Shown here: positions 148 to 63,788 of the stretch, one piece after another
Layout: each line of letters opens with the position of its first letter
Position numbering within the stretch: position 1 is the stretch's first letter
Source of the DNA: a virus
Length of the DNA stretch: 64,000 bases
Reading direction: 5' to 3' (one strand)
IMG/VR virus record: IMGVR_UViG_3300028833_000004
The notes under the pieces: model-generated
Seen by the model: the letters and a program-made list of their open reading frames with translations, nothing else
Database searches by the model: none
What the model was told of the DNA's origin: nothing
Program-made: the position numbers and the translations under genes

Positions 148-188
148 AACCCCTATCGGAGAAATCCGATAGGGGTTATTTTTTTTTT
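148..188. terminator. Bidirectional rho-independent terminator at the convergent junction
   Basis: 13-bp perfect stem aacccctatcgga / tccgataggggtt with a gaaa loop, then a T-run on the plus strand. The same hairpin follows the TAA (187-189) of the last minus-strand gene. Confidence 0.8.
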
Positions 189-3100
189 AAACTAAATGAG
201 TATCTTTTATTATACTAAATAAATCATTTGAGAAATTTAATAAACTATATTCATCAGACTCAATGGTTTTGGCTGCATCCTAGAATGTTTTTTGTATAAA
301 ATCAGTTCCAATTATTCCAAATTGATCTACTGGTTTAATTAAAGATTCATAAATATTCAATTCCCTAGCTGTTCTATCAAATAAATCTACAGTTGTAGCA
401 ACCGTAGCATTTTTCTTCAAATCTGAAAAATTTTCCATAATTGCTGCTATAATTGCTGATACTATGGCTGCAAATAGTAAATTAAACAAAAATAATTTAG
501 TATTTTCCCATTGTTGTGGATTTTCTCTGATATGTTGAATATCTCCAGTAGCAACATCATGAATTGTTTTAGCTGTAGACACGGCTAAACCTTCAATCGG
601 GTTAGCTTTCCATTCAAGAACTGGTTCCAAAGCCTCTCCTGTCGTCGTGTCAATTCCATTTTCAGAAATACCATTTTCTCCAGCGACTACCTTTCTAGTC
701 AATTTAATTTTATCATCATATTTGTAATATAATTTCTTACCTGAAATTGGATCTTCTAAATGAACTGTAGAACCTACCGATGAATCTATACCAACAGCCA
801 GATATTTTCTTATTTCCGCAGGCATGAAAGTTAAGAAATTGGTATACATAGTCCACCACCAACCTTTCTACATGTTTGCACGTTCCTCATGTCCATAATA
901 ACCATATATTAAACCAATCTATTCTTTTATTGAATTCTACTCCTAGACAGTATAAGCTCTTGGTAGAGGATCGTAAATTGGGTTATTTGAGTCATCTGTA
1001 ACCTAACCAAATCTTAATTCCCCACCCTAGGCATTTTTCCAGCCTTCATGAGAAAATTGTTGCATTTTGACTGTGTATAAAGCTTTCTATTCAACCCATT
1101 TTTTATCTTTTGTAAGATTTTTATGTCTATTTTTCCAGAAATAATTTATACGTTCATCTTTTTCGATGTCATAGACCAATTTACCATCAACTTCAGAATG
1201 TGCATTAAATGTACCATCCGCCTTCATTTTTGCAATAAATATAATCATTCTATTAAACCAATCTGGTGCAACTACATTTAAATATAACATTCGAGATCCT
1301 AAATTATGTATACCCCATCTGTCAAAGGCTAATGTTTCACCGATTACATTTAAATCTCTATCGTTTATCTAATAAACATTATTTATTGCATCTATAAATC
1401 CAAAATCTCCGGCAGATTTACCTCCTAGAAGTTGTTTTGATTTTGTTAAAAAGCCCTCACCAAAAACTTCCTCTGCAGCACTTAGTAAATGTTCAAATGT
1501 TATCTTATAATCATTTCTTATCTAATTAGTTAAAACACTACTTATATTTCTAATCCTACCTAGGAGCATTTCTTTTATAAATAGTGCTGGTCTAACTGCT
1601 ATTTTTGTAAGACTCTACATACTTTTAACAAATCCAATTGTTTTTAGTAAATCCTCATCTTCACTCTCTGTTAATGATGCATTATAAATTGATACTTTAA
1701 TACGATTCTTTAAAGTTTCTCGCTAATTTTGCATGGATTGACCTGTAGCTAATTCTGCCAGATTAATAATTGCCATCTAATGATCTACAGTTTTTAAAAG
1801 CTTTGTAAAATATATTTCCTTTATATCTGCAACTGCATATGACAGAGTTAATTTATTTAAATTAATTTCCCATTCAATTGGATTAGTTGAATTTACTCTA
1901 CTAGATCTATTTTTTGCACTTTCTTTATAATAATTAATATATTTTAATTTTTTAATATTTTCCTCACGTTCCTAAGCCTACTATTCATTTAATAAATTTG
2001 GCTCTAAATAATGTTTCCATTGAGAAACTTCTTTATGAATTGCTTCAGATAAACTTTTACCCTAAAATACAGATTGAATATTTTTAATAAATCCAACAGC
2101 TCCCTATCGTTCCTATAACGGTAACTCAAAATATTTACCATTATTTAAGAGAATATTCTTATAGGCTTCAAATCCATCAGACTTTTCTAACTCAGCATAA
2201 GACATTTTACGATATTTACTATTTAATTTTGTCATTCTATGTCGATTAAAAGACCAAAGAACTATTTTTAAATATTCACTCTATGCCGGAGTTAATCCTG
2301 AATTTTTATCATATGGATTTTTTAACATCATTGATGGATGTAAGCTTCCATCAGAAGAATGAATTAATAATGATTCATATGCGGATTCGTGATTACCCGT
2401 TAATGTACCTCGCAATGAAGTATCTTCATCTAAAAACTTTTTAGTAGCTAAATTTATTTCCTAAACTTCTTTTAAAAATTCAGCTTCTATCTATGCGGAT
2501 GCTACACTAAAAGCACCATCAAACTATCGCACAAGCTCATCAGGGCTTGCGTATGATACTGACGTATGTAATCCCTAAGCTATACCTGTAAGCATAAGTC
2601 CAGATTTATTAAATCTAGTTATATCACCAAATCTAAATAAATCAATGCCGGCCAAAATAGACTCATCAAATGTAAGACTCCTCATATGCATTGAATACAT
2701 TTCTTCCGGAGCCATATTTTTCATAGTTAACAATAACTGACTTATAGCAGCATATAATTTACCCATCTCTGAATTTTTATTATCATATTCAGATTGGTAG
2801 TCAGATTTTATATGATCTAGTAATTCTTCTAATTCATCTTCTGTTAACTATTTTCCGACATTTGCAGATAAAAAAGGATCCTATAAATATCTTATACTTG
2901 ATATATATAATAAATCAGCAACATGTTTACTTAATGTAACTACCGGATCAATAAAAATAATCTAATCTAGATCTTTCTCAACATCTTTAAAAATTTCAGC
3001 ATTTTCTACAACTTCTGGTTTATTATTGGCTTCATAAGATAATATCCTCATAGCTGTTAAAAATGGGGTAAAATTTTGAATAGTAGTATGTGATCCATTT

Positions 3101-4821
3101 ATCATTGAGATAGTTTTTATTGCAGATATTTTCGGCTACCCATCCTAAAATAATTCTCTATATTCAGCAATAGTTAATAATGTTTTTATTAAATATAAAT
3201 TTCCAACAGATGGATTTGGTAAATTTTTTGATTCTTTAAATTCACGTAAAACTGTTTGATCTTTTAATGCCGGGGTTATTAGACTAGATCTTGGATCTAT
3301 CATATAATTAAGCTATTTACTATCTGGAACAGGTACTATAAACTCATAAGAACCATCAGTATTTTTCATAGTTATAATACCCTAAGCCTCCAATGGTTCA
3401 AATTTAACATATTCCCATGAAGGACTCATATAGTGATATAATGTATAAGAGAATGCTGATGCCCAATCTTCATGTTTCTGTTTATTTAAAAAATTATTTA
3501 ATGCCTCTATATTCTTCGTTTTTAGAATCTCTATAACAGTTAATAATGAACCCTCAAATTTCTCTTTTATTGCTTTCTATTCTTGCTCTATTAACTCCTC
3601 TATAGTTCCTCTAACCTCTTCTTCGGAGTCTTTATTATATCCCACAAGAATATTATTATCTAATTTTTTCCAAGATACTACAGTATTCTCAGCACACACT
3701 GGATACCATTCACGATCATTATTAACAGAGTTTTCAATCTACTATTTAAGATATTCCTTGGTAGACTTCTCCAAAATACGTCCCGTGCATAATATATCCA
3801 CTCTGGTTTTTAGTTTTTCGTTATGCTTTTCAATTACTTCTTTTGGGAGAACTTTGCCGATTGTTGGAAATTTAGAATTTACAATTAATAGGGGGCCTTG
3901 TGAATTTTTTCCCAAACCTACTAATGGATCTTCAAAATCCTTAACTAAAATTTCCTATTTTTCATTATAAACAAAATTAACATTTCGAATCTAAATTCTT
4001 TCCAAAGGAACGTTGAAAGTCTTAGAAACCAATTTTCTATAAAGTTCTAGCTATAAATAGTGATTCTATAACGTCGGGACACTCATAGAAATATTTGAAC
4101 TTGTTTTAAAATCTAAAATAATCACATTTCCAGATTCTGTAAAAAAAATCCCATCGGCACGTCCCTACAATTTTGTATCTCCATCCTTTATCCAAAGAGG
4201 CACTTCACATTCTAAATTTCCTTCTCCAAAAGTGTCTACTAAAGTTCGTTTAAAATTTTTAATACTCTGCTCTACATTTTTTGCAAAAATTGTTGGATCT
4301 TTTGAATCGAAGTGGAGTAGAAAATCTCTCAAGTGAATATTAAATGCATCAGTCTCATCTCTAAACTATTTATTATCGACTAAGCTCTTCTAATAACTCT
4401 TGCAGAGTTCTATTAAATCATCTAAGGACTTTAAAGTCTTTTCCGAATTTCCATCAGAATACATCTAAATATATTTATGATATTTATCACCAAATAATCT
4501 TCTAAACTCTCTATAAAATTCCCTATTCTGTTTATTTACACCGTCTTCGGCAGAATCCTTGGAATAAAATTTCTACCCAAGACTAGTAACAGTATCAAAT
4601 CCTGTAAGAGTTGAACTATCATAAGTCCTTCTATTTTCATTAATATGGTTCTATATATTATTAAATTCTTCTGAATGGGTACTATAAAATGTAAGGTCTT
4701 GATTTAAAGCCTCAGAAAATCTTTCAGAAATTACTTTTCCCTGAATCTAACCTCTTAAGGCTTCTATTGTAGAAGCCTTAAGAGTTTCACCTTTATAATT
4801 TAATACATAAAAACAATTCAT
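187..4821 (-). CDS. Giant virion-block protein (1,544 aa with TAG as sense) with a RecB/Cas4-like PD-(D/E)xK nuclease motif set
   Basis: Every codon of the frame was inspected from ATG 4819-4821 (TAATG overlap with the upstream stop) to TAA 187-189. About 45 in-frame TAG and no TAA or TGA (hand count). Track ORFs 280-849, 1087-1290 and 2575-2766 are same-frame fragments. Motifs: GRADGIFF (D at 4153-4155), ILDFKT (4105-4113), [TAG]LELY (4039-4053). Confidence 0.8.
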
Positions 4822-7800
4822 TACTTACATTCCTTAGTTATTTGTTTAATTAACTCATCTTTTAGATATCTTGCCCTAATTTCCTGAATATCAGTATAAT
4901 ACCCCTGCTCATTTACAAAATTAACTCTGGCTTTTTGCATAAATGATGTTATTTTTTTATAATAAATGGCGTGGTTAATATCATAGGAACTTTGCGGAAT
5001 CTGAAGATTTAAGCCCTTAAATAATTCCCTAAATCCTAAATTAATAGTATTTAATAAGCCCTCTGAGGTTATTGTTTTTGATAAAGCTTCCTCAGACTTA
5101 ATATAATCTGATATTCGATTCTCTATCTCCACAACAATTTTTTCATCGAGATCTTCTTCTGGTAAAGTTTCTCCGAGTCCTTTATAAAACTTATTAATAA
5201 GTTCCCAATACACAGTCGGCTAATTGGCTCTAAGATTTGCCAACATTAAGTGTGTGAACTCATGTAAACCAAATTTTGCAACATATTGTTCAACACTCTC
5301 TGTATCTGGTTTTTTAGAAATATTAATAAAAATCTAACCATCCTAAACAGTTGCATTCCATCTCTCCTTTGGGCTATTTACTATTTTTACATTTGTATGA
5401 AACATTTTTGACAGATGCTCTAAAATTTCCTGCCCATATCCATAGTCTGTTTCATTTATTATAGTCAATGGTTCAGCAGTAATCTTTTCAGAATATTGTG
5501 AAGGTTCCCTGTAAAGCATTCCATTTAATAGATGTGTTTTTTCTATCTATAGTATTCCAGCAACATCTCCCTTAGAATTTATATATGAACATATTACATT
5601 ATCAGTTCCTACTTGTAAAATCTAGTAAGCAATGTATGCACGATCTCCAGATTTAGTTGTCCCGACCTTTGTTATAACATCTCCAGTTTTTAATGTTGTA
5701 TATTCTGTAACCTTTCCCACCTGATCTAATGAGTCTAAGTTAAATTCGTCATATTCATTTTTGCCATCGTAATAAACCTATGTTAGAGTATAAAACGTTT
5801 TTCTGCCTTTATCTGGTTTTATTATTGAAACTTTAGAATTTATAAAAGGTGCTGATTGAGCTAATTCCTGAATTTCATATTGTTTCTCAGATATTACTTG
5901 TTTAGGGATAATTTTATGGATAAATAAATCAGTGTCTTTTAATGCATTTTCCATAAATATTTCCCTAATGTTATTTATTGGAATTAATCGATCAGAAGTA
6001 GAAATTATAAACTAGTCATTTTGAACCTGTTTTATTGTCAGTTTCTGTCCATCATTTAATTCTATTGTATCTCCAAAAGTTAAATTGTTTAGAATTCTTA
6101 ATTGTATATCTTTTCCCATATCCTAAAAATTTTCAACATGTAAAGTTTTAGTTTTTGATGTTGCTATAGAATTCTCTGGAGAGATATATGCATCTACATC
6201 CTACTGTTTAGTTATTGGAAATATAGCAGTATTAACTTTCGGAGTATTAATAGATCTCAAAACCAGTATTGGAAGTATACCTTTTTCAGACTCATCATAT
6301 AAAATATCACTAACAACATATGTAACTCCTTTAAATGTAACGACATCATTAACTTTTAAATTAGTAATATTGATATGTTTTAGTTCATATTTTGTATAAT
6401 CTAGAGTTGTATCAAATTCGTTTAATTTATAACTTCTATTTAATCTTAATGTCTTGACCCTTTTAAATCCCTAATTCAAACCAAAGGTTAAATCAACTAA
6501 TGGATTATCTAAATTTTTAATATTTGTTATTTTTACATAAATACCCTACCCAGTTAAGTCTGAACCCATATAAATGTATCGTGTTCCATCCGAGTCTACT
6601 AATATATCTCCTTCCTTTGGTGCTATATCTGATTCTGCTTCTGAAACTTTCTTATAATAAATCTATTCATTAGTTAAAGCATTGGTATATAACTGTAAAT
6701 TTGTCCAAATTTTTGATTTTATATAATTAGTCTACTAATTATCATCTATAGATTTAATAAATGCCCTACATAGTTTAGATTTTTTAATTTTTTCAGACTT
6801 ATTAAGTAAAGCTCTAATATTATCCTCAGTTATTCCTTCTGTTTCTGATACATAATTTAATATATAATTTAATTTATCAAAGTCTGTAGCAACCCTTCCA
6901 AGTTTACTAGATATATATAAGTGTAATAATGTAACTAATGTATCCTGTGATAATTTACCGTTCTTATCCATTCCAATCTATTTCTCATTAATTACAATAA
7001 TTGGTGCATTACCAATATACTCAATATGTGACAAAGTTTCACTTGATTTATCCAATCTTATTATGACTGGTTGCTTTTCTTCAATAAATTTAATTAAATC
7101 ATCTCCAAAAAGATTGTCTTCAACCTCTAAATTTTTAAACATCTCTGAAATTGAAATATCCTACAGAAAGGTTCCTGAGTTTTTTGTACCAGATAAAAGA
7201 CTTGCCCAATCACTCACTCTAGTTAGAATATGATTTCCTAAATCTGTTAGAGTTTTTTTCTCTATAAAAATAGGTCGACCATTAATTCTATCTTCATTAG
7301 TTTGATTAATTAAAACAGGATACTAGAATTTAGTAGTACTTTCCTTCGAAACTGCCGTTCCTGCAGTTTTTATAGTCACGTCAAGAATATACTACTAAGC
7401 AGTTTCAATTGATGCCCCTTCTCTAATATCAACATTTACAGTACTATATAGAGGGCTTATTGTTTTTATCCAGGCTTCTATCGACTCTTTATTAAATTCA
7501 ATATTTGCAGCAAATTCTTTCGGAGACATTGTTTGAATAAAAGACTTTTTTACTGAAGTTGTAACCCTTGTTTCCTTATCTGTATATGTTCCCTATTGAG
7601 CAAGTGCATTAGCGAAGGGTATTATATCAGCTCTCCAAGCGAGCATTTGCTTTACTGCTAAATTGCGCACTTCCATATTGGAACTTGCAGTTTTTTGAGC
7701 TACTTCATCTAAATATTCAAACTATTTATCTATATAATCTGTAATATTACTAAATCTCTTCATATTTTGATATATACAAGTTGTGCTTCCTTTTATATCA

Positions 7801-10800
7801 TTTCTTGAAGTAATAACATTATATAAATAAAAAAGTTCACCAATCGTTAAAGGTTTGCCTATAACACTATGTAATCCAGATGGAATCTGTGCTATCTAAT
7901 CAAATCCTTCGGAAACCATATTTATACTAAAAGCAGTAGCTTGATCTTCTTTTGCTAAGAATGCATCTAAGGTTATATCGTAATAAGGTAATTCAGTTAT
8001 ATAATCTTTTACAACCTGTAATCTCTATACAAATGCATTATCTTTATATTTTTTAATAATGCTTGGAATAAAGGCATTATTCATAAAATCAATAAATCTA
8101 TCAACTTTAATAGAATCTGTAACACCAATAAATGCATCATCTACTAAATCTTGGTTCCAGTTTGGAAATAATTTAGAAATCTCAGATTTTTTAATGCTAT
8201 AATCACGCATCTCTTCTAATCCCTTTTGTATAAAATACTAGTCTATTAATCTAAGTAATTTATTAGAATAATTAACATAATCTTTAGTTCCATTAGGAAT
8301 TATTTGTGCGTATTCAATATTAGTCTCCCCATCATTATCTTTATCATCTTCAATATTAATATTTTCATCTAAATCTAAATCATCTAAAGAATGCTTATCT
8401 ATAATGGATCTAAGTAATGATGCTTTTCCAATAGTCTAACTAATCAATCTAACAGTTTTACTGATGCTTTCAAGCTATTTATTAAAATGTGGGCTAGTTA
8501 AAACCACTCTCATTACATTTACACCAGATTTCGTAAACTGATACTGATCTAGGGCATTTTTTCTATACTCAGAGTTATTTGGATCAAATAGTCTATCAAA
8601 ATTTAATGGCTCCTAACCATCTACCAATATATTTTTTCCAGGATTTCTACTTAAGTAATCTTTAGCAATATTACGTTGATTCTGTGTTGAAATATTTATA
8701 TTTTTAAATCTCTGAATTTTGCTTTTTGATAAACCTGTTAAAAATCCAGATAGTTCAGTATATTTACTTTTAACTCCCTAATTTACTTTGAAATAACTTG
8801 TTAAATCTCTAAGTTCAGATGCTAAATCACATACTTTTAATAGTGATCTATAAGTATTCTCATCAAATTCCTATGCGTGTTTTTGAATTAGTTTTTTAAT
8901 ATCATTAGTATCTAATTTTATCAAGGAAAATTTACTTGAGTCTAAATCTTTAGCAATGGTGTTCATTAAATTCACACATATATTAATAACATCGTCTATA
9001 TGCATTCCATAAGTAATCATTGCTAATGGTAATGATAATAATTCTGGACGCCCATTCATTTTTGCTAATGCTAACTCTTTAGCATTATCAGTTGCTAGAG
9101 ATATAAAAATACTCAATGTATCAGCAACATTTGGTTCAAAGGACCTTGAAAAATATAAAAACTTTTTAAAAGCCTCTTCTGAAATATCATCAGATTTAAT
9201 AACACCCATCTTTACAGCTGTTTCATAAACATCCATATAATGTGCACCCCTAGTTCCTAAAGCAGCCCACTATTTATTTTTAAACACCTATAATAGTGGA
9301 TGCTATGTTATTCCAAACACTCTTTTATAACTTTCATCAAAGGCTTCCCACGAAATTTTAGTATTAGCTAGAGTAAAGAAATGTTCATGAATATTCTTTG
9401 CCTCTCCTGTTTTCGCATCTATTACTGTAAAATTTAAATCTATATTAATCTAGTCTTCAGGTGAAATTCCATTCTGTTGCATATTATAAAATTGCTACAA
9501 AGCCCCGGCAGCCTTTATAGCATTTGCGGCAATACCAACATCCGTTTTTCCAACAGCATTTTCTCGCTAAATTTCAAATATTGTAAATGGATTTAAATCA
9601 TTATATTTCTTATTACCACCGGCATACTTTGTTATAACTTTAGTGACTGGTTTTGATTCCATAGGAACCTATGCAGCTTTTAAATTACGTAAATCAGACG
9701 CCGCTGAATATATGCCCTACATAATTCTATTCTTTTTAGCTGCTAAACCCTCATTCCAATTATTATATTTATTTAGGTTTTCAATTAAATCTGAAGGCTC
9801 TCCGATATAAAAAATATTTTTACTTTTATTTTCTTTATTATTTAAAAATTTAAGAATATTATCTACAATATCTAATTTAGTTACTGGATCGACTATTGAG
9901 AATATAAATTCAATATCCTAAATAGTTAAAGTGGGTTCTTTTAAAACTAGAGAAAGCTCATTCCCAATTTGGATATCTAGTGATGTTATTAATGGAAGTT
10001 TTCTCTTAATTTTATCCGTTAATATTTCAGAGGCTTTTAATTTATTCATATCAACCCCACCATCCTCAGCTATTTTTGAAATTGTTTTTCCTGACGGACA
10101 GGTTAACAATAAAGATCTCTAAATAGTCTCTGGAGATGAATAGTCTGTAAATGCATTTCCAGCAATTCTTCCTCTAGAATCCAACTCATACATCATAGTA
10201 TAAGCTTTATCTATATCATAGTCAGAACCCTGAAACCACATTTCCCATATATTCATATAACCATTATTTTCAGAAGTTTCTGTAAATGCAACCGTTTCAT
10301 TGGCCAAGAATGATTGAAATGCTTGCGATGGAATACGAGCAGATACAGTTTTTAATGAAGTATAAAAAGACTATTCTAATTCTTTAGTGAGTTTCTTAAT
10401 AGATCCATCAATATCTTTAAGATTAAAGGACTTATGATTTAAAAAAGAAGCGTTTCCATAATAAGCATTGATATCTTTAGACATCGGTGAAAGGAGCACT
10501 CCCATATTTACTTTACTAATTCCCTAAATAAAAATTTCTATTTTAAGTTTTGAATTATTATTAGGTCTACTAATAGAAACTTTTAAATCATCTGCCCTTC
10601 CCTATAATTTAATCCCCTCAATAACTCGACCATACTCATCTGTTATTGATACTGTTCCATCATTATTCTATATTGTATTTGAATTTATTAAATTATCTGA
10701 AATCTAATTAGCTGAAAAAATTATATCAATATTATCTAAAGCAACAGCTGATGCACCTTTGCCATAATTTTCTAAATTTATTGATGGATCTAATTTATAT

Positions 10801-50453: not shown

Positions 50454-50993
50454 TTAGACAGATTCACTGCCTTCAAGAGCAGCAATGCGGCTTTCTAAAT
50501 TATGTATAGAACTCCAGAGCCCAGAGTCGTCGTAACTGCCTGGCCCACCACCGCTTTGTTCTAGATTCTGTATGCGACTCTCATGGTCGCTAACAGATGA
50601 TTCCAAGCTACTTATTTGGTCACTTAGAACAGAACTATCAGGTAAAAATTGCCAGGAATCCTCCTACCAAGTATATTTTCTATATCTTAGAAAAATACCA
50701 TAAGTAGCCGCAAATACACTTATAACTAATATAGCATTATCATTCTCTCTATAGACTGTTAAAGTTGCAGGAAATTTTGCATCAGGAGTAAATACAAATT
50801 GGCCAGATTCAAAATTATCTTTTGGTGTAAGTATTACATTATAAATACCTGCGGGTAAATTTTCAAATGGAGTACCTGAATCTGTCCGCTCAATATTTAA
50901 CTCCTCAAGATTATTCATATCAATCTTAGCTAAAATAGTTTTATTTATAGCCTAACCTGCCTAATGTTGATTAATTGAGTAAATTTTGTTCAT
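50454..50993 (-). CDS. Small fibre-like protein (179 aa with TAG as sense) with a C-terminal coiled-coil (..SRIQNLEQSGGGPGSYDDSGLWSSIHNLESRIAALEGSESV)
   Basis: ATG 50991-50993 to TAA 50454-50456. Track ORF 50664-50918 ends at a TAG, and beyond it the frame continues into a plausible trimerisation-type tail. Confidence 0.55.
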
Positions 50994-54178: not shown

Positions 54179-54892
54179 TTAATATACTAAAATTACATCA
54201 TTTCTTTTCTTATACATTATCTATCCAAATGTCTAAAATATAGTACATTCTGTATCTAATTTTACAAGATTATAAGCAGATGTATAATTGCAATAATTCT
54301 TATAAATGTTTCTAACAATAAATTGTTCACTATTCCATTTATTCATAGGTTGTGTTTTATAAAACTCATTAACCTTCTCATAAAATTCAATTAATGCTTC
54401 TTTATAACCAATACAACATCCTGCATTTAAATATCTGAATTTAGATGAGTGCTACCTAACAGGAGTATCTCCAAAATATCCGGGATAATTATTCTTAGAA
54501 GCATTGAATACTATACCAGCATTAAAAGATTTAAATTTCTCAATAAGACTATCCCAATTATCAATTACTACATCATATCCATCCAATATAAGAATATATT
54601 TAGTTTCTATTTCTTTCAATGCTTTTAATATACATTCTATTTTATAAGGATTAGACCACTTTTCTTCTCTAGGAATATAACAATTTATAATTGGTATATT
54701 ATTTTCTTTTAATTGCTAATATAATACGCATTTATTATCATCTGTCCAAATTGATAATATTGTAAGATCGTCTGGAGCCTAAGATAACTTATGACTCCAG
54801 ATGTCCTACATAAAATCATTAAATACTATAGAAGTACTTCCTTGAAAATGCGCTATATTAAACTTTTTATGGCTGCGATTGAGAAATTGCAT
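54179..54892 (-). CDS. Putative DxD glycosyltransferase (237 aa with TAG as sense)
   Basis: ATG 54890-54892 to TAA 54179-54181, one nt before the next ATG. The frame was inspected. YILILDGYDVVI (DxD-like) and RYLNAGCCIGYKEAL resemble the D-x-D and LNsGgfiG pair of lysyl-hydroxylase-type and viral glycosyltransferase domains, as recalled. Confidence 0.5.
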
Positions 54893-57800
54893 TTATTCTA
54901 TCATTTAAGTCATTTAAAGCTGCGGCAATTACAATAGCTGTTTCTGGTGTTAATCCTGATTCTTGAGAACCTAATTGTAATAATAACTATTGTAAAGATT
55001 TACCAGATTGTGGATTAGAACCATCATAATCACCAACTCCTTTTATAAATATACTACCATCTGTTGTAATTTCAAGAGCATTTCTATGATCTCCATCAGA
55101 TTCACCAACACCGACAGAATGAATTGTTTTTAGTTTAGATGATACTGGACGGATTGAGCAACCGAACCTCTTATCAGTAACTATATTATCGGCGTATACC
55201 TCATCAAATTTTCCATATAATATATCAGCATTCGCACCATTACAAGAAGAAGTAAAATAATATAAATATCCTTCCAAATCTTCAAGTGCTTGTCCATTTA
55301 TCAATCCTGCTGCAGGCAAGAAAATATATAAATCAGAATCAGACTTATTTATAAATTTCCACCCATTTACTCCATTAACAGATGTCCATTCATTGTCTGT
55401 ATGTTCAATTAACTCCTCAAAATCCTTTTTACTTGGAATTCTCCAGTTTTCTCCAAGAGTTTTCGCTGCAATATCATCTTCTAATACTAATCTTGTTAAT
55501 TCGTCTGGGTCTGGTGTAGAACCTCCCCACTAATCAGAATCTGTACAATATTTTGTTAATGTACTATTTGTTCCATTACACCATTTATAAGTACTCCAAT
55601 CATAGGTTCCCTTAGTCTCTGTTTCGCCCCACGCATAGTAATCACCATAATCTTCTGGATTTTGAGCGCCAATATTACAAGTTGCCCATAAATTGCCAGA
55701 AGGCAAATCAAGATCTACATACTCGACAGAAGTGTTTATATGTACATCGTTGGATTTATTACATCTACCTTCAGCATGTTCTGCTTTATGAGTAGCTTTT
55801 GTATACCATCCTTCTGCGTGGGAATATTTTTCTTTTGCTTGTGTGTTAAAACCTTCTGAATGTGCACCACGATTTAATGCTCTAGTGTGCTCTCCTTCAG
55901 CATGTGCATATGTTCCTTCAGTATATGTTTCTCCACCTTCTGCATGTGCACCATATCCATAGTATTCTAAACGTTGAACTTGGTATTCTCTATTTGGATA
56001 TGCGTTTATATATTGTTGTAGATTATCATAATTAAAAACTTCTGGATAATCACCACTACTTCTATTTTCATGTCCTCCAGAATCACCCCAGTAGTCTATA
56101 TTATACCTAGGAGAAATTTCCAGGTATGGATAGTTCTCTGAGTAAACTATAAAATTATGAAATCTAACTCCTTTCTAATGGGGGGCCCAAAAAAGCTATA
56201 CACTAGAAAGTTTTCTTTCATCAAATGAATGAATTAAAGAATTATAATCCCCGCTAATTAACTATAGTGTTACATGATTATTTGAAGAATTATAAGAACT
56301 TAATTTTACAACAGCATTTCTATCAGTATATACTTCTTTGCTCTAAATAAACGTTTTCCATCCTTCTGCATGAGAATATTTCGAATCAGTTTGTGTCTCA
56401 TATCCTTCTGTATGAGAACCTTCAGAATGATCATTTACAAAAGTATTTATACCTTCGGCATGAGCACCAATACTTAAAGATTTAGAATCAACACCTTCGG
56501 CATGAGCGGCGTCTCCATCTGCTCTAGTGTTTATACCTTCTGAGTGTGATGCAGTTTGAGCTGCAGCTGTATCTTTACCTTCAGCGTGTGCTGCTACCTA
56601 CCATTCTTCAGAATGGTCAGAAGAACTTACATCTTCAAAATTACCTTCTGTAGAAGTATTATATCCTTCAGCATGAGAATATGCCCCACGCGCATTACAG
56701 CGAGTTCCCTCAGCATGAGATCCTATTCCAGAAGCTTGTGAATCTTCTCCTTCTGCGTGTGACCAATCTCCTTGTGCAGAACTTGATTTTCCTTCTCCGT
56801 GAGCAAAATTTCCAGATGCTTTTGTATCGATGCCTTCTGTGTGTGAATATTCACCTTCGACTTGAGTTTGCTTACCTTCAGCATGTGAACCAAATGTATA
56901 AGCAGCAGTGCCATAACCTTCCGCATGTGAGTTACCACCAAACGCTCTTGTCTTAAATCCTTCAGAGTGTGCATTTGTGCCAGTTGCTTGTGTTCTTTCT
57001 CCTTCTGCATGCGAATGTAAACCAGAAGCATCTGATAAGTATCCTTCAGCGTGAGAATCTTTGCCAGTAGCGCTAGTTTTGATATAGATAGCCTCGTTGA
57101 TAGGCAGTGTTACTTCTCTATCAATTGTTATTTCTTCTCCATATTGATCTATTAAGGTAACAATGCCAATTATACTTCCATCAGCTTTATATAAAGGTCT
57201 GCCGATCCAGCCATTTACTTTATTTTCTTTTTCAACATCGTACACATTTGGAACATCGGCAGAATCACTTAGTGACATGTCAAAATCACTAAAAAAGTCA
57301 GATCCCGCTAAAAAATTTTTAGCCGAATCAGATGCGCCGAAATCAGAATCAATTGATGATTGATGATATATTCTAATGATGTTAGAGTTGTCTACTGAGT
57401 TAAAAGTTCTAAACAATGTTATATGTCCACCTTCGCCTTCTGCATGAGATGCTGTACCAAATGATGTTGTATATTGTCCTTCTGCATGCGAGGAATTTCC
57501 AGTTGCACTAGTAAATTCCCCTTCTGAATGAGAGTAATCACCATCTGCTTCTGTATCTTTACCCTCTGCATGAGAGGCCTCCCCGTTTGTAACCGTGAAC
57601 TAACCTCCTGCATGTGAATAGTTACCTGATGCTGTTGTACCGTAACCTTCTGCGTGTGAACCTTCACCAGATGCTGTTGTACTGTTACCTTCTGCATGAG
57701 AACAGTATTCAGAAGCTGTTGTATCGTTACCTTCTGCGTGCGAACCTTCACCAGATGCTGTTGTACCGGTACCCTCTGCGTGTGAATAGTCATCTGATGC

Positions 57801-59324
57801 TGTTGTAGATTCACCTTCTGCATGAGAACAGTATTCAGAAGCTGTTGTATTGCTACCTTCTGCATGTGAACAATCACCTGATGCTATTGTGCTTGCTCCT
57901 TCAGCATGTGAATAGTTACCTGAAGCTGTAGTACTTTCACCTTCTGCATGTGAAGGACTACCTGATGCTGTTGTACCGTTACCTTCTGCATGAGAATCAT
58001 TACCCGATGCTGTCGTTTCTTCTCCTTCTGCATGTGAATAGTAACCTGATGCTGTTGTAGTTTTTCCTTCTGCATGAGAACAGTAACCTGATGCTGTCGT
58101 TTCTTCTCCTTCTGCGTGTGAGTAGTCCTCTGATGCTGTTGTGTTGTAACCTTCCGCGTGAGAATCATTACCTGAAGCTGTAGTACTTTCACCTTCTGCA
58201 TGTGAATAGTTACCTGATGCTGTTGTACCGTAACCTTCTGCGTGTGAACTTTCACCAGATGCTGTCGTTTCTTCTCCTTCTGCATGTGAAGCGTCACCTT
58301 TTGATCCACATACACGTTTCCAATAATAGGTCACTCCATCAGTTAATGAACCAGTATCAATATTGAAATAATCTCCATCATAATTACTTGTATAATAATA
58401 GCGACATATAGTGATTTTAGAAACTAGTTGAGTGCATTCACTATCGCTATAAATCCAGCCTTGAGACCCATAACCGTCATCTATATTATCACTATGATCA
58501 CAATACGTAAAAGTAATTCCGGTTTTAGCTTTAATTTTGTTTTGTTCTTCCGTTCCGATAACAGAACATACAAAGGATACGATTTCGTCTGAAATTAATC
58601 CTTGTCCTTCTGCATGTGAATAGTTACCTGAAGCTGTCGTATTATATCCTTCTGCTACAGCACTTAGTCCCGTAGCCGTGTTAAAGAGTTCTTGTCCACC
58701 GTCTTCTTCATTCTGTCTATATTCGGTTGCAAATGAACCAGTCGTACTATCATATATATACCCTTTAGCAGAAATCTCAGTAGTTCCATCCTAATTGTCT
58801 GTAATAGTTATATTATTACCAGTAACTAGATTATGTGACACTTCATTATCTTCAATCTAAATACCTTGGCCAGATGTATAAGGTGCCCCAGCATTAACTG
58901 CAGATATTGTAAATCGTGGATTATCAGTAGATTGTGTACCCTCAACTGGAGTTATCTTAATATTTTCTCCAACTTCATAAGTTGTATCCTTAGCATTAAG
59001 GAAATTATTAGAATCTACCCTTAGATTATTATTAACATTAATTGCGATGAATTTTTCAAATTCATACTAAGTGTCCTAAACATCTATACCTGTTCCTCCA
59101 ATATAATTAGTTTGAAACTCTCCTAATCCATAAATCTTTCCCCGGGCCCAAATAACTTTTAAACCGTCCACATAATTTTGACCAAATGCTCTATCGTTCT
59201 AACAGGTTATAAATGCGATACTATTTTCATCAATGATGTTAGTATCCTTAATATTTTGGATACTAACATCATTATTATTAAAAATAGTATGTAATCCTAT
59301 TATATTACAAAATTTCTTTGCCAT
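54867..59324 (-). CDS. Tail fibre/adhesin (1,485 aa with TAG as sense): about 45 SHAEG-type 14-aa beta-roll repeats (YadA/Hep_Hag-like) plus a C-terminal lectin-like domain (Fib_succ_major/DUF1566-like)
   Basis: ATG 59322-59324 to TAA 54867-54869. The frame was inspected. Track ORFs 57600-58334, 56598-57416 and 54987-55319 are same-frame fragments. C-terminal LPSGNLWATCNIGA..GDYYAWGE..WRIPSKKDFEEL..IFLPAAG..RFGCSIRPV fits the Bacteroidota paralogous-domain pattern. Confidence 0.7.
55750..57070 (-). repeat. Three further, more degenerate blocks of the same 14-aa SH(A/S/T)EG repeat
   Basis: Blocks at about 56640-57070, 56350-56600 and 55750-55965 (e.g. GNSHAEGYGTAAYTFGSHAEGKQTQVEGEYSHTEG). Confidence 0.7.
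57425..58300 (-). repeat. Near-perfect tandem array of 42-nt units encoding xxTTASGxxSHAEG (about 21 copies)
   Basis: Read directly from the translation of track ORF 57600-58334 and its continuation. All three frames and the antisense strand lack stops here. Confidence 0.85.
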
Positions 59325-59336: not shown

Positions 59337-62300
59337 TTAGATAAGAACCCCGTCATATCTCACATGCCATGAGGCACTGCTTGTATTTCCAAAAATCAAT
59401 ATTGGCTATGAACCATTGATAATAATATCTGCTTTTAACAAATTCTACCATGTAGCCGGAGTTCCCTGATAATAAATGGTAGTTTTATCATCAGAGCCTG
59501 TTTTTGTATAAATTGCACTATCTCTAATCTATTTTAAATTTGGACCTAAATATAACTCATAATTAATTCCATTAATTCCATTAAGGGAAGTATATCTATA
59601 TAGATCCTCAATATTTTGGAATTTAATACTTGTCAATTGTGGACAATTATTAAGACAATCTTCAAAATTGTATTTACATCCAACCTCCACAGATGTTAAC
59701 TGCTAGCAATTTTCAAATACTCGAGCAGATAAAACATCAACATTATTAAAACCACCTACAGAAGTAATCTATGTTCCAGAAAATGCCTAATCATCTACAA
59801 ATCTAACAGAATCTGGAATATTTAAATCTCCACCTAGTCCAGAATTTTTAAATGCACAAAATCCAATGCTCTCAATAGTACTGAAATTTGAATCATTAAA
59901 ATTCTATAAGGTGCTGTTATTAAATGTAAATGGTGGGATTTTATTTAATCCCCACTTAATCTCTGTTAAATTTCTGCAATTCTAAAAACATCCAGCTCCA
60001 ATATCTAAAACATATTCATCAAAGCCATAAACATCAGATATTGCAGAATTATATAATACATAATTTCCAAGTGTTACTGGTGCTATAATTGTACAACTCT
60101 ATAATAATGATCTTTCTGCCAAAGCATAATCAGCAACATTATCAACATCATATCCAATTATAACACGCCGGGCTTGAATTGGAATCTACCCCTTTTCTAG
60201 AGTCCTGTTCTAAATATCAACAGAAATCCACCCATTACCATTATAATATTGTGTTGGATATGAAAATTTAGGAACAAATGTCGTATCCTACAATATAGGC
60301 TCAGAAATATCAGGTGACCAACCTAAAAACTTATATCCACCGCCATATGTAGAAGCTGGTGTGGGCTATTGTCCTGTATATATTACATTTCTATTATAAA
60401 GAACCTGTTTTATTTCTATTGGAGAACCTCCTCCATTTAAAAAGGTAACGGTTCTTTTCCAATTGGTTGGAATATGTGAATCATCAAATATCCACTAAAG
60501 TTCTGAATTAGTAAAATCTCCTTCAGTAGTTTCTACTCCTTTTACCCAATCTGTAAATGTTCCCCAAGTTCTAAATCCGACAGATAATTTATTTAATCTA
60601 GAGCATCCAGAAAACATTTCAGTTAATGCATCGTCAGAAGCAGTAGTTGCTAAAATGGTAGCTTGTGAGAGCCGCTTATTATTTTTAAACATCTGGACAT
60701 AAGCACCAGTAGGAATATTTGTTGCTGGAAGGATTACCTCAGATGTTAAGAATAATGATGAACCACTAAAAGTTTCCCTATAACAATCCTAAGTTAAAGT
60801 TGTTGCAGGAAGTATTACTGATCCAAAAATATGCTCATCTTTAAAGAGCCCCTAAAATGCACCTTTATGAAATATTATTGTTGCATCTGGATTCTATCCC
60901 TATAAACTCATAATAGAACCCTCAACACCCATAAGTGTAAAACTACCAGTCGCAATCGGTTTAAAGTGTATATTAGGATAATCTGAGTAAATTTTTCCAG
61001 ATACCTCTATATAATTAGAGACTGCTATCTTTGACCCAGATGTAAATACTTGCCAATCATTTTCAGAAGTAGTTCTATAAAAGATTGTTGCGCGACTCTC
61101 ATCATAGGTACATTGTATATATATATTTCCCTGATTTCCATCCTTATAAAATTTTAAGAATGAATATTGTGGTTCTGGAATATCTTCTATAGGAGTCTTT
61201 GTATATATAGCTTTATATATAATATCCTGAGTTACATAGGGATTAAATGATGGAGACCAACCACTAAAAACATAAGAATTCTAAGAATCATTAGGTCTGG
61301 TGGGATTAGCCGGAGCTGTTACATTTGTGCCAAAATCATACGAACCAGTTTGAATAGATGAATTATCCCAATCTACAAAGGTTACTCTATATTGTTTAGA
61401 TACTTTTGAAAACTATGCTGTATATACATAATCCTAATTATTTACAACATCAATTTTCTTATCCCAACCACTGAACGTGTATTCATATTGTGAATCCGGA
61501 ACATGTGTTGGAGTTTTCCCCTTATACACGGGTAGATTCCCGTTATCATAATAAGAACTCTTTAGAACAGTTCCATCATAATTTTTAAAGGTAACTTTCC
61601 AACGATCTGTATTATACTGAGCCTCATATACTGCATCTCTATATGCTGGAACGATAGCTGGAAACCACTCTAGCAGTTCATAGCCTGGAATATCATGTCC
61701 AGAAGGTGGTATTGGAAGCGTTCCGTCCCCAACTTCTATTGTTACTTCGTCTAAAGGACTAAATTTAAAAGTAATCTAATGACCCTAAGAATACCAATCA
61801 TCGGAAGTAGAAACACCTGTATAGTCAACTGTGTTGTCTGGGATAATATCTATAGAATTATCAGCTGAAGATATAGACATTTGGCAATCACATCCACCAC
61901 CACTACTAGAACCAGTTCCACAGCACGCTATATTAGTTACAGCCGAACCATCTGAATAAAATAATTTATTCGTAATGGAATTATGCATTAAATGGCTACC
62001 AGTAAAGATATCTAATGGTTTGGTGTTAGTTAGTTCCCATGACTCTGTATCCTTATTATATCTATATTCTTCATTACTTGGAAATTTCCAAATTGGGCTG
62101 TCCTAATCTTTAATTATTTTAAAAACTCCACCAGGTGTTGAATCCGATAATAGTGCAAATCCAGTATTCGAACTAGAAAAGAGATCAAAGGCCTCTTTTA
62201 CAAGATTATTATTAGAGAAATCTTTTATATGGACCTAACCTTGTAGGTCTATATAAGACACTTTATAATCTTTAAAGTTAATTATGACCGGTCGATCTTC

Positions 62301-63788
62301 ATTAATTCTTATATTAACGTCTGAAGAATTAGTATCATGTACGTCAGAAAATGCTAATCTAAGAGAATTCTATTCTTTTATTATATGTACCTAAATTGAT
62401 GAGCCGTTATTCACATTATAATTATCATAAGATTCATCAAATGGAACTATCTTTAAGCCATCTTCCTAAGTAATTAATGTTCCGCCTAGATAATATTTAT
62501 CAGAGTCTGGATAGGTTTCCTAATCATTTTTCGCCCAAGCAATTGGAATAACATCGCAATTACGTGAATCTACTTCAAAAGTTGGTTCATTCTGGATTCC
62601 ATCAAATTTTACTGCTGATTTATAATATCCGGCACCACTCTCAAAATTATATTTAGTGCCATCATATATAGCACCTCCGCAAGCTGCAAAAATATTAAAA
62701 GGTTTATCAAATTTTAAAACAGTAACACCAACTGTTTGATCCCCCCATCCAAATGGATATGGGAAACGAGTCTCCTTGCGATAATTATTCATCTAAACGG
62801 CCAACATATATAGAGTATTTTCATCCTCATATACTATTGGACATATCATTAGAGCATCAGTCCTGGACGATTGATTAGCCTCCTATATAACTCCCGCACT
62901 TATAATTATATCCAAATCACCAAACTGATTTGGTTCAGATTTAAAAAATGTTGAGGTAGCTGTATTTGCAAGCTGCTCTATATAAGAATAATCTCCACCA
63001 TCTGGACACGTAGTTTCAGAATTACTTAATTCTAACTGCTTTGTCTCTTGATTATATGTTAATGTGGAATTTAAATTCGTTTTAGTTTTAGTCTAAGCAT
63101 TATAGTATGCCCATGTAGTAAATCCTGTTCCAACATTCTCGGCTTCCCAAGTAGATTCACCTGCAAAGTGCGAGATGTCTGGATTTAAGGGCGTATTAAA
63201 TTCAGAATTTTTTGCCACAAATGCCTAACTAATTTCTCCACCATAACTTCCGCCATTTTTAGGTATGGTGGGTTTCAAACTTCCCAATTCATCATCATAG
63301 GCCCATAAAACATGAGGTGTCCAAGTATTTACAATACTAGAAATAGTGAATGGAGTTGATAATTTTTCTTTTACTAATTCAAAGTCTGCATCATTATCTA
63401 CAACATAAGCCCCGGTAAGCATTAAGTAATCAGCTACTAAATCATCTCCATTAAAATATATAAGCTTATGCTTCTCAGTTGGAATACTATTGGTAGTTAA
63501 TGAAATTATTTTTATATTTCCGTAAGAATCAGTAATATGTAAATCATCCCCAATTCTATCAAAGTTATAAGTAGTATTTGTATCCTAATTATTACAATTA
63601 AAAATCTGCCCCTATGTCCAAATATATTTTCCTAAAGCTGGATCATCAATAAAAAGAACCACATCGTGATCTAATCCAGTTTTTGGGTCTATGTCTGAAA
63701 GATTGTACGGAATTGGCGAGTTGTTTACATTAGCTGTAAACACACTCGCAAATCCGTCAGTATATGCAAACTTTACTTTATTATTCAT
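59337..63788 (-). CDS. Tail fibre/adhesin (1,483 aa with TAG as sense) with Listeria-Bacteroides (Flg_new-like) repeats and BspA-type LRR units
   Basis: ATG 63786-63788 (ATGA overlap) to TAA 59337-59339. The frame was inspected. Track ORFs 63225-63422, 62520-62792, 61785-61988 and 60495-60692 are same-frame fragments. Units such as YRVTFVDWDNSSIQTGSYDFGTNVTAPANPTRPNDS*NSYVFSGWSP (about 60300-61780). LRR-like IGAGCF*NCRNLTEI.. lies at about 59400-60300. Confidence 0.65.

What the first reader, a model, noticed from the sequence alone, without database searches (positions are those of the whole stretch)
187..63788. TAG is a sense codon throughout this phage module (most likely Gln, code 15)
Directly seen: the fragments in the ORF track line up in the same frame and are separated only by TAG. 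In 187-4821 I counted about 45 in-frame TAG and no TAA or TGA in 1,544 codons. 4821-15878 has no TAA or TGA in 3,685 codons. The same holds for 15889-24279, 33738-38852, 54867-59324 and 59337-63788. Every gene end that abuts or overlaps the next start uses TAA or TGA. TAG also occupies positions with known constraints. It sits at the Q of the nuclease QhxxY motif ([TAG]LELY, 4039-4053). It sits at the invariant Q of SF1 helicase motif III (GDET[TAG], 18838-18852). It sits at the x of D-x-R-(I/M)-G in the sugar dehydrogenase (51286-51288). It sits inside an LRR unit at AF-x-D-C (52876-52878). It is interleaved with CAA/CAG in Q-rich tracts (26880-27180 and 49330-49450). TAG-to-Gln recoding is established for some crAss-like and other gut phages, which fits the rest of the window.
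Basis: partly seen in the sequence, partly recalled or inferred. Interest (0 to 1): 0.9.

Follow-up and report, generated by a model that had tools for sequence, protein, structure and literature searches.

The report
Amber codon read as glutamine, crAss-like phage
All 64 kb belongs to a large uncultivated crAss-like gut phage that reads the stop codon TAG as glutamine, helped by its own suppressor tRNA. This trick is real here but already well documented for this phage group.

Summary

- **Layout.** All genes lie on the minus strand. With TAG as sense, 28 ORFs tile 187-63788 at 98.7% coding density.
- **Codon counts.** In 20,964 codons there are 469 in-frame TAGs. Every gene ends in TAA (22) or TGA (6).
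- **Which amino acid.** Three homology comparisons with standard-code relatives each favour Gln by 15-17 natural-log units over the next amino acid. TAG also sits at catalytic-motif glutamines.
- **Decoder.** A tRNA with anticodon CUA lies about 9 kb beyond the window's high end. It is on contigs that match the window exactly wherever I compared them. Three TAG-recoded relatives carry the same tRNA lineage.
- **What the phage is.** Crassvirales capsid, ring and muzzle proteins are present. The genome is about 158.6 kb or more. Relatives mix standard, TAG and TGA codes and carry introns or inteins, as described for the "Zeta" crAss-like group.
- **Prior knowledge.** TAG-to-Gln recoding in crAss-like phages is published and validated by proteomics.

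So this is a new member of a known kind.

Quantitative points worth noting:
- TAG is the commonest Gln codon (48%).
- Recoding spans at least 94 kb.
- The major capsid gene avoids TAG, here and in 29 relatives.

The parts
187..4821 (-). ORF of 1,544 aa with 45 in-frame TAG, ending in TAA. It has PD-(D/E)xK-like nuclease motifs (GRADG, ILDFK, [TAG]LELY).
   Evidence: Homolog in MT835470. No Pfam hit.
4821..15878 (-). Giant ORF of 3,685 aa with 93 TAG. It has a DYDID motif at residue 1886. RNAP-like identity is not confirmed.
   Evidence: No PDB or PHROG sequence hit.
15889..24279 (-). Giant ORF of 2,796 aa with 73 TAG. It has P-loop and SF1-helicase-like motifs, with TAG at the Q of motif III (GDET[TAG]) and of motif V (DL[TAG]GAEYDYVI).
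   Evidence: (AAA_30, weak)
24281..26149 (-). ORF of 622 aa with 16 TAG
26146..28011 (-). ORF of 621 aa with 30 TAG. It is Q-rich, with TAG interleaved with CAA/CAG.
28008..31490 (-). ORF of 1,160 aa with 29 TAG
31533..31820 (-). ORF of 95 aa with 0 TAG among 10 Gln codons
31907..32518 (-). DUF192 protein, 203 aa, 6 TAG
32515..33741 (-). ORF of 408 aa with 12 TAG
33738..38852 (-). crAss muzzle protein, 1,704 aa, 35 TAG
   Evidence: Pfam crAss_MUZ 2.9e-23. TAG sites 9 and 270 align with invariant Q in relatives.
38880..41795 (-). ORF of 971 aa with 22 TAG
41728..42297 (-). ORF of 189 aa with 5 TAG
42291..42734 (-). ORF of 147 aa with 2 TAG
42807..43508 (-). crAss tail ring protein 1, 233 aa, 6 TAG
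   Evidence: Pfam CrAss_Ring_1
43505..44182 (-). ORF of 225 aa with 8 TAG. Three of them align with near-invariant Q in relatives.
44236..45399 (-). ORF of 387 aa with 1 TAG (TAG-poor)
45427..46194 (-). ORF of 255 aa with 5 TAG. Site 50 is Q in 36/36 relatives.
46194..47042 (-). ORF of 282 aa with 1 TAG (TAG-poor)
47099..48508 (-). Major capsid protein, 469 aa. It has 1 TAG (codon 5, possibly upstream of the true start) against 22 CAA/CAG.
   Evidence: Pfam Crass_capsid; binomial p=8e-6; the same avoidance in 29 relatives
48517..49509 (-). ORF of 330 aa with 11 TAG and an acidic, Q-rich N-terminus
49596..49901 (-). ORF of 101 aa with 5 TAG
49849..50196 (-). ORF of 115 aa with 1 TAG
50454..50993 (-). 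ORF of 179 aa with 3 TAG
51043..51894 (-). UDP-glucose/GDP-mannose dehydrogenase-like protein, 283 aa, 1 TAG (D[TAG]RMG)
   Evidence: Pfam UDPG_MGDP_dh
51910..54177 (-). BspA-type LRR_5 repeat protein, 755 aa, 4 TAG
   Evidence: Pfam LRR_5 1.7e-193; 69-nt repeats
54179..54892 (-). Glycosyltransferase-like protein (GT_PLOD), 237 aa, 6 TAG
54867..59324 (-). ORF of 1,485 aa with 14-aa SHAEG...TTASG repeats (YadA_head-like) and 13 TAG
59337..63788 (-). ORF of 1,483 aa with 35 TAG
   Evidence: A precomputed LRR_5 hit is listed for the ENA gene call.
63785..64000 (-). 3' end of a 400-aa gene (5 TAG in the full gene) that starts outside the window

Best explanation
The window is a one-strand block of structural, tail/adhesin and giant virion-type genes of an uncultivated large crAss-like phage (Crassvirales, resembling the 'Zeta' group). 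The genome is about 158.6 kb or more.

In this block UAG is an ordinary sense codon for glutamine (genetic code 15), and only UAA and UGA terminate translation.

Shown:
- UAG is used at the density and with the positional uniformity of a normal codon, and makes up 48% of all Gln codons.
- It aligns with Gln in standard-code homologs.
- The phage carries its own tRNA with anticodon CUA on the gene strand. It lies about 9 kb upstream of the window, inside the same recoded gene array.
- The same tRNA lineage is present in three recoded relatives.

Inferred from established knowledge:
- The suppressor tRNA is charged with Gln by the host glutaminyl-tRNA synthetase. That enzyme reads U35 and tolerates CUA, as with E. 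coli supE. It also favours a weak 1:72 pair, which this tRNA lineage has.
- The suppressor outcompetes host RF1 at UAG during infection.
- Proteins that carry TAG can be made only once the suppressor is expressed, which is the published timing model.
- The very highly expressed capsid gene avoids TAG because suppression is less efficient than normal decoding.
For: Coding structure:
- The ORF gain is specific to TAG-sense.
- There are 469 in-frame TAG, no gene ends in TAG, and coding density is 98.7%.
- TAG positions are uniform along genes.
- With TAG counted as Gln, Gln content is 4.7%, against 2.4% without it (my arithmetic from the counts).

Gln identity:
- Against standard-code relative MT835470, 147 TAG sites align. 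Q is the commonest partner (22), and Q is best by 17.5 nats.
- Against 36 standard-code IMG/VR relatives of the MCP region, 53 sites give Q best by 15.6 nats.
- For TerL and portal of the same genome, 44 sites give Q best by 15.5 nats.
- In TAG-recoded relatives the commonest partners are TAG itself (194) and then Q (135).

Motif glutamines encoded by TAG: nuclease QxxxY, SF1 motif III GDxxQ and SF1 motif V QGxE.

Decoder:
- tRNA(CUA) was found by ARAGORN and by Rfam tRNA (43.8 bits) on contigs identical to the window over the overlap I compared.
- Homologous tRNA(CUA) genes occur in L181, L182 and L183 at 50-56 bits where scanned.
- TGA-recoded relatives instead carry tRNA(UCA).

Literature:
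- TAG->Gln or TGA->Trp in 243 crAss-like phages, with codes switching at short phylogenetic distances in the Zeta group (PMC7886860).
- Metaproteomic proof of code 15 in crAss-like phages (PMC9523058).
- The timing model and the idea that host GlnRS charges amber suppressors (10.1101/2021.08.26.457843).
Against: - There is no protein-level evidence for this phage.
- The tRNA sequence does not by itself show Gln identity. It has A73 and C3:G70 where E. coli tRNA-Gln has G73 and G3:C70, and it is no closer to tRNA-Gln than to other tRNAs.
- The timing model predicts a TAG-free early region that I did not observe. The tRNA sits between TAG-containing genes rather than in a standard-code module.
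- The closest IMG/VR relative has no tRNA within 10 kb of its TerL or MCP.
Confidence: 0.93

Rival explanations
1. TAG is a sense codon but encodes something other than Gln, for example Lys, Glu, Tyr, Ser, Leu or pyrrolysine.
For: - Lys and Glu are the next-best fits, and many TAG sites align with E, K or R in relatives.
- ARAGORN labels the tRNA 'Pyl' simply because of its CUA anticodon.
- Two relatives have a class-II-like extra arm on the homologous tRNA, a feature that SerRS and LeuRS recognise.
- In relative L181, Q and E are indistinguishable with 18 sites.
Against: - Q beats every other residue by 15 nats or more in three separate site sets.
- Roughly two dozen TAG sites have Q as the commonest, often invariant, residue in standard-code relatives.
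- Sites encoded by CAA/CAG show the same substitution spectrum, Q > E > K > T.
- This phage's tRNA has a short variable loop.
- Q is still best in L182, which has the extra arm.
- No pyrrolysine genes were seen in any family search.
Confidence: 0.03
2. TAG keeps its stop meaning and the interruptions reflect pseudogenes, sequencing or assembly error, or low-level programmed readthrough producing mostly truncated proteins.
For: - Standard-code gene callers (JGI) split the region into dozens of small ORFs.
- No tRNA lies in the window itself.
Against: - 469 interruptions are all TAG and never TAA or TGA, while frames stay intact over as many as 3,685 codons.
- The sequence is identical in independent assemblies from several samples.
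- Homology runs straight through TAG sites.
- A dedicated tRNA(CUA) is encoded.
- No gene ends in TAG among the 28 in the window or the 37 more upstream.
Confidence: 0.01
3. TAG is read as Gln, but the decoder is mainly supplied by the host (a host suppressor or a host that itself uses code 15). On this view the phage tRNA(CUA) is accessory or inactive.
For: - Published surveys detect suppressor tRNAs in only about 40% of TAG-recoded phages.
- The closest IMG/VR relative shows no tRNA in the 40 kb examined.
- MT835492 has none detected at normal thresholds, though that record is incomplete because it lacks TerL.
Against: - The tRNA(CUA) scores well above the Rfam threshold (43.8-55.6 bits against 29).
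- It is conserved as one lineage in the 4 TAG-recoded genomes of this subclade whose TerS-TerL region I fetched (L179, L181, L182, L183).
- Sister phages with TGA recoding carry tRNA(UCA) instead, which links tRNA type to phage code.
- No bacterial host with code 15 is reported in the papers read.
Confidence: 0.03

Closest known systems
TAG->Gln (code 15) recoded crAss-like phages (Yutin et al. 2021, PMC7886860; Borges et al., 10.1101/2021.08.26.457843; Peters et al. 2022, PMC9523058)
   Same: - In-frame TAG in TerL, portal, structural and giant genes, with TAA/TGA-only termination.
- A phage tRNA(CUA) and Gln as the inferred residue.
- Low GC (32%).
- Relatives that switch between standard, TAG and TGA codes.
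- Genome size and intron/intein-bearing relatives as described for the Zeta group.
   Different: - It is distant from deposited phages: the best GenBank MCP identity is 44% and the best IMG/VR identity is 60%.
- TAG is the commonest Gln codon in most genes here. In the ~105 kb crAss-like set studied by Borges et al., only four gene families prefer TAG.
- The giant genes are uninterrupted, whereas Yutin et al. describe frameshifted or fragmented RNAP ORFs in Zeta.
- No standard-code early block has been seen yet in about 94 kb.
TGA->Trp (code 4) recoded relatives in the same clade
   Same: Homologous MCP and TerL (39-48% identity), the same genome scale, and a suppressor tRNA encoded near TerL (tRNA-UCA in L156, L157 and L162).
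   Different: A different stop codon is reassigned, with a different tRNA anticodon and a different amino acid.
Lak megaphages and other TAG-recoded gut phage clades (Borges et al.)
   Same: Amber reassignment to Gln concentrated in structural and lysis genes, suppressor tRNAs, and low GC.
   Different: These are unrelated phage lineages. Some encode RF2, and none was seen here in the part of the genome I read.
E. coli supE (glnV) amber suppressor tRNA-Gln(CUA)
   Same: Same mechanism in principle: a CUA-anticodon tRNA charged by GlnRS inserts Gln at UAG in competition with RF1. This rests on established knowledge, not on a test here.
   Different: supE arises by a point mutation in a cellular tRNA-Gln and suppresses only partially. 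The phage tRNA is not recognisably derived from tRNA-Gln and must support hundreds of essential UAG codons.

Membership tests
Genetic code 15 (TAG->Gln) recoded phage | Conserved genes are interrupted only by in-frame TAG and become full-length when TAG is sense, with termination by TAA/TGA only | tested here: met
   469 TAG in 20,964 codons; stops are 22 TAA and 6 TGA
Genetic code 15 (TAG->Gln) recoded phage | TAG positions align preferentially with Gln in homologs that use the standard code | tested here: met
   Q is best by 17.5, 15.6 and 15.5 nats, and many sites align with invariant Q
Genetic code 15 (TAG->Gln) recoded phage | A suppressor tRNA with anticodon CUA is available. This is common but not universal in published cases. 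| tested here: met
   None in the window. One lies ~9 kb upstream on contigs identical to the window over the compared overlap, and it is conserved in three relatives.
Genetic code 15 (TAG->Gln) recoded phage | Peptides show Gln at TAG positions | not testable with these tools
   No proteomic data are available. This has been shown for other crAss-like phages (PMC9523058).
Genetic code 15 (TAG->Gln) recoded phage | Bimodal genome: early/replication genes compatible with the standard code, late genes recoded | tested here: inconclusive
   All ~94 kb read contains TAG-bearing genes, with scattered TAG-free ones (MCP, GroEL-like, a TerS-position gene).
Crassvirales (crAss-like phages) | crAss-type major capsid, tail ring and muzzle proteins, and TerL/portal homologous to crAss-like phages | tested here: met
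   Pfam Crass_capsid, CrAss_Ring_1 and crAss_MUZ. TerL is 42% identical to that of MT835470. 345 MCP and 271 TerL relatives were found in IMG/VR.
Crassvirales (crAss-like phages) | Giant virion-packaged RNA polymerase genes downstream of the structural block | tested here: inconclusive
   Three giant ORFs are in the expected position, and one has a DYDID motif. There was no hit to PDB sequences or PHROGs, and no structural comparison was run.
'Zeta' group of crAss-like phages (Yutin 2021) | Genome of 145-192 kb | tested here: met
   The ENA contig is 158,647 bp, with a second source at 158,651 bp. Relatives' contigs run up to 212 kb.
'Zeta' group of crAss-like phages (Yutin 2021) | [quoted passage not shown] | tested here: met
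   Code mix. In relatives, TerL is split by LAGLIDADG/HNH ORFs (L182) or carries a Hom_end_hint intein (L183). None was seen inside this window.
'Zeta' group of crAss-like phages (Yutin 2021) | Phylogenetic placement with named Zeta genomes | not tested
   No reference Zeta sequences were at hand. The assignment rests on the described traits only.

The most novel reading that the evidence does not exclude
In this lineage the amber reassignment may not be a late-gene switch. It may instead be close to genome-wide, with UAG as the main Gln codon and only a small TAG-free set of genes (major capsid, GroEL-like chaperonin, TerS-position gene and a few others). These could be translated before or independently of suppression. 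The code would be served by a dedicated suppressor-tRNA lineage with a weak or mismatched 1:72 pair, which in some members has gained a class-II-like extra arm.
Probability: 0.25. Interest if true: 0.4.

Novelty: new member of a known kind. Interest (0 to 1): 0.25.

Why it matters
For annotation it matters a great deal. Under the standard code this phage collapses into hundreds of meaningless fragments, as in the JGI gene calls. Under code 15 it yields intact capsid, muzzle, terminase, portal and giant virion proteins.

For biology it adds a well-resolved example of code 15 in a large crAss-like lineage. The example comes with its suppressor tRNA and with recoded and standard-code relatives for comparison.

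It does not change the picture already set out by Ivanova 2014, Yutin 2021, Borges 2022 and Peters 2022.

Two quantitative side results could inform models of why phages recode. TAG is the majority Gln codon, and the capsid gene consistently avoids it.

Tried and rejected
- **Other codes.** TGA-sense and TAA-sense readings give no ORF gain on the gene strand.
- **Close DNA relatives.** megablast of 20 kb against GenBank phages found none. Exact-pattern and single-protein scans of IMG/VR found nothing, so alignments were needed.
- **Metagenome scan.** The scan with the 195-aa neighbour of the tRNA returned nothing.
- **Walking the contig.** Two steps upstream worked. The third failed because the 570-aa protein found no match. 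The low-coordinate side could not be extended.
- **Isotype of the tRNA.** Typing by similarity to tRNA-Gln or other tRNAs gave no discrimination, with 49-58% identity to everything.
- **Lysis cassette idea.** PHROGs gave only 'unknown function' for the small genes after the tRNA, so I dropped the idea that it heads a lysis cassette.
- **Ribozymes.** No theta/HDV-like ribozyme or other Rfam family lies near the suppressor tRNA or in the window.
- **RNAP identity.** The 3,685-aa protein had no PDB sequence hit and no PHROG hit.
- **Intergenic gap.** The 257-nt gap at 50197-50453 shows no promoter or terminator signal above chance.
- **MT835492.** A relaxed ARAGORN run gave many intron-containing false positives plus one weak CUA candidate, which I did not trust.


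Full report
**1. The observation**

The window is 32% GC, and all of its genes lie on the minus strand. Under the standard code the minus strand carries only 4,015 aa of ORFs of at least 150 aa. If TAG is read as sense it carries 21,414 aa, with ORFs up to 3,704 codons. Making TGA or TAA sense gives no comparable gain on that strand.

Taking the first ATG of each stop-to-stop frame gives 28 genes that tile 187-63788. Coding density is 98.7%, with many 1-4 nt overlaps. These genes hold 20,964 codons, 469 of which are in-frame TAG. Every gene ends in TAA (22) or TGA (6) and none in TAG.

The absence of internal TAA/TGA follows from how the ORFs were defined, so the real test is ORF length. In the two other frames of the same genes, TAA+TGA make up 5.0% and 12.5% of codons. 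By my arithmetic, a 3,685-codon run without them has a chance probability below e^-180.

TAG positions are spread evenly along the genes (KS p=0.48), as expected for an ordinary sense codon.

**2. Not an artefact**

The window is 100% identical over the 10.4 kb I compared to a 117,361-bp JGI contig (3300031992, Ga0310694_10000118). That contig's 20.6-kb upstream flank is in turn identical to a 158,647-bp ENA contig (ERZ27257202 k141_6601460). Three short JGI contigs from two other samples are also identical to the window. Three Logan contigs carry identical proteins, and I compared no Logan DNA directly.

The JGI gene calls use the standard code and shatter the region into dozens of small ORFs. 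The ENA and Logan calls already contain the long proteins, so those pipelines evidently used a TAG-sense code.

**3. What the region is**

Pfam family hits:

| Gene (window coordinates) | Pfam family |
|---|---|
| 48508-47099 | Crass_capsid |
| 43508-42807 | CrAss_Ring_1 |
| 38852-33738 | crAss_MUZ |
| 32518-31907 | DUF192 |
| 54177-51910 | LRR_5 (BspA-type, E=1.7e-193) |
| 51894-51043 | UDPG_MGDP_dh |
| 54892-54179 | GT_PLOD |
| 59324-54867 | YadA_head-like repeats |

Three giant ORFs of 2,796, 3,685 and 1,544 aa follow:
- The 2,796-aa protein has P-loop and SF1-helicase motifs.
- The 1,544-aa protein has PD-(D/E)xK-type motifs.
- The 3,685-aa protein has a DYDID motif.

None of the three could be tied by sequence to a solved RNAP or to a PHROG family, so the RNAP label stays unconfirmed.

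The nearest GenBank phages are two unannotated human-gut scaffolds:
- MT835470 has 44% MCP identity and uses the standard code.
- MT835492 has 39% MCP identity and needs TAG-sense on one strand only. It is incomplete, since it has no TerL.

IMG/VR holds hundreds of relatives, on contigs of 90-212 kb. Of the 80 best MCP loci:
- 36 use the standard code.
- 41 need TAG-sense.
- The other three (L013-L015) fit TGA-sense best.

Several of the TerL loci also fit TGA-sense best, and three of those carry a tRNA(UCA). In closer relatives TerL is split by LAGLIDADG/HNH ORFs or carries an intein.

I did not build a phylogeny with named Zeta genomes.

**4. Which amino acid**

I replaced TAG by X, aligned the proteins by tblastn to standard-code relatives and tabulated the residues opposite X. 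I then compared the likelihood of that spectrum under each of the 20 amino acids, using substitution frequencies measured in the same alignments.

| Comparison set | TAG sites | Result |
|---|---|---|
| MT835470, whole window | 147 | Q is the commonest partner (22, against 3.5% background); Q best by 17.5 nats over K |
| 36 standard-code IMG/VR loci around MCP | 53 (each site weighted once) | Q best by 15.6 nats |
| TerL and portal of the same genome, just upstream of the window | 44 | Q best by 15.5 nats |

Many individual sites are invariant Q in the relatives: 36/36, 34/34 and 25/25 in the MCP-region genes, and 36/36 in TerL FFAK[TAG]YEYFHY. In TAG-recoded relatives the commonest partners are TAG itself (194) and then Q (135).

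TAG also occupies catalytic-motif glutamines:
- QxxxY of the nuclease
- GDxxQ (motif III) of the SF1-type ATPase
- QGxE (motif V) of the same ATPase, a new observation from a weak nsp13 alignment

With TAG counted as Gln, the Gln content is 4.7%. Without it the content is an abnormally low 2.4% (my arithmetic from the counts).

**5. The decoder**

There is no tRNA in the window. On the contigs that extend it, a 74-nt tRNA with anticodon CUA lies on the gene strand 9.2 kb upstream of the 63788 start codon. That corresponds to window-equivalent coordinates 72,989-73,062. It was found by ARAGORN and by the Rfam tRNA model (43.8 bits against a threshold of 29).

It is not at the head of the recoded block. 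These upstream genes on the same strand also contain TAG:

| Gene | TAG count |
|---|---|
| TerL | 16 |
| Portal | 28 |
| 570-aa protein | 22 |
| 382-aa protein | 11 |

The recoded stretch is therefore at least about 94 kb.

Three TAG-recoded relatives were fetched through a conserved 192-aa neighbour. Each carries one tRNA(CUA) of the same lineage. All share:
- the acceptor stem 5'-UGCCC
- discriminator A73
- anticodon loop CUCUAAA
- a weak 1:72 pair, which is U-A here and a U.U mismatch in the relatives

Two of these tRNAs have an extra stem-loop in the variable region. TAG still fits Gln best in two of the three relatives, including one that has the extra arm. The third is undecided between Q and E with 18 sites.

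The tRNA is no more similar to tRNA-Gln than to other tRNAs. Its Gln identity therefore rests on the protein alignments and on established knowledge that GlnRS accepts CUA anticodons and favours a weak 1:72 pair.

**6. Mechanism**

Shown:
- UAG is a sense codon with Gln-like conservation.
- Termination uses only UAA and UGA.
- A conserved phage tRNA(CUA) exists.

Inferred:
- A host GlnRS charges the tRNA.
- The tRNA competes with RF1 at UAG.
- TAG-bearing proteins depend on expression of the tRNA, as in the timing model of Borges et al..

I saw no release-factor or synthetase gene, but about 65 kb of the genome could not be read.

TAG use differs significantly between genes (chi-square p=1e-7):
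- The MCP has 1 TAG in 23 Gln codons (p=8e-6).
- Its two neighbours have 1 in 12 each.
- Most other genes use TAG for about half of their Gln codons.

The MCP avoidance recurs in 29 TAG-recoded relatives, at 5% TAG in MCP against 38% in flanking ORFs. This is consistent with selection against suppressor-dependent codons in the most highly expressed gene.

**7. Comparison with what is known, and novelty**

Amber-to-Gln reassignment in crAss-like phages is established:
- It has been predicted for 243 crAss-like genomes, including the Zeta group (PMC7886860).
- It has been surveyed across gut phages (10.1101/2021.08.26.457843).
- It has been confirmed by metaproteomics (PMC9523058).
- It is still being reported for new genera (10.64898/2026.08.21.746148).

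This window is a clean, divergent new member of that kind. What is mildly unusual is the extent of recoding (at least 94 kb, with no standard-code block seen yet), TAG being the majority Gln codon, and the giant genes being intact. None of this is new in kind.

**8. Verdict**

Confidence in TAG = Gln decoded by a phage suppressor tRNA is 0.93. Interest is low to moderate (0.25).

Noticed in passing
window 47099-48508 (MCP); also 44236-45399, 46194-47042 and 31533-31820: The major capsid gene and a few neighbours almost completely avoid TAG: 1 of 23, 1 of 12, 1 of 12 and 0 of 10 Gln codons, against 48% overall. The same MCP avoidance holds in 29 TAG-recoded relatives (5% against 38%).
   Followed up: yes
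L181:24-115 and L182:1437-1529 (relatives); compare L010:727-800: The homologous suppressor tRNA(CUA) genes in two relatives are 92-93 nt long, with an extra ~7-bp stem-loop in the variable region (a class-II-like arm). All three relatives have a U.U mismatch at 1:72. Gln is still the best fit for TAG in L182.
   Followed up: partly
L182:10582-14139 and L183:10582-14037: In close relatives TerL is interrupted. In one it is split around LAGLIDADG and HNH/NUMOD ORFs (intron-like). In the other it carries a Hom_end_hint intein. This genome's TerL is intact.
   Followed up: no
L179:7430-8890 (same genome, ~26 kb upstream of the window): A phage-encoded GroEL/Cpn60-like chaperonin (486 aa) has no TAG among 12 Gln codons, and sits among TAG-rich genes. 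tRNA-Asn, tRNA-Cys and tRNA-Trp genes lie at L179:2236-2632. A 156-nt spacer between the Asn and Cys genes has no Rfam match.
   Followed up: partly
L004:12473-12540 (MT835492): A sub-threshold HDV-like ribozyme match (28.9 bits, E=0.008) starts directly after tRNA-Met. This recalls the 'theta ribozymes' described next to phage tRNAs (PMC10879173). Rfam also finds a 65-nt tRNA-like gene (anticodon UGU, no variable region) at 12157-12221 that ARAGORN misses.
   Followed up: no
window 3854 and 6535: Two independent assemblies end inside this window. The ENA contig ends at about position 3854 and the JGI contig starts at 6535. Both lie at the junction of the 3,685-aa and 1,544-aa genes. This could mark a circular-genome junction, a terminal repeat or a strain-variable spot.
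   Followed up: no
window 57603-58299 and 52073-53673: There are long in-frame tandem repeats. A 42-nt unit (14 aa, SHAEG..TTASG, YadA-head-like) occurs 16.6 times in the 1,485-aa protein. The LRR_5 protein contains 69-nt BspA-type LRR units. Both are likely host-adhesion or tail-fibre proteins.
   Followed up: no
L156:3595-3667, L157:3942-4014 and L162:639-711: Relatives whose ORFs need TGA-sense carry a tRNA(UCA) opal suppressor a few kb from TerL. Suppressor type therefore tracks the code within this clade.
   Followed up: partly
window 50197-50453: This is the largest non-coding gap in the window (257 nt). It has no Rfam hit and no promoter or terminator signal above chance.
   Followed up: yes
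L010:706-726 (just upstream of the tRNA-CUA): A perfect hairpin, AAACCGC-TTAG-GCGGTTT, sits between the stop of a TAG-free 195-aa gene and the first base of the suppressor tRNA. The tRNA gene encodes no CCA end, and the next ORF starts 19 nt after it.
   Followed up: no
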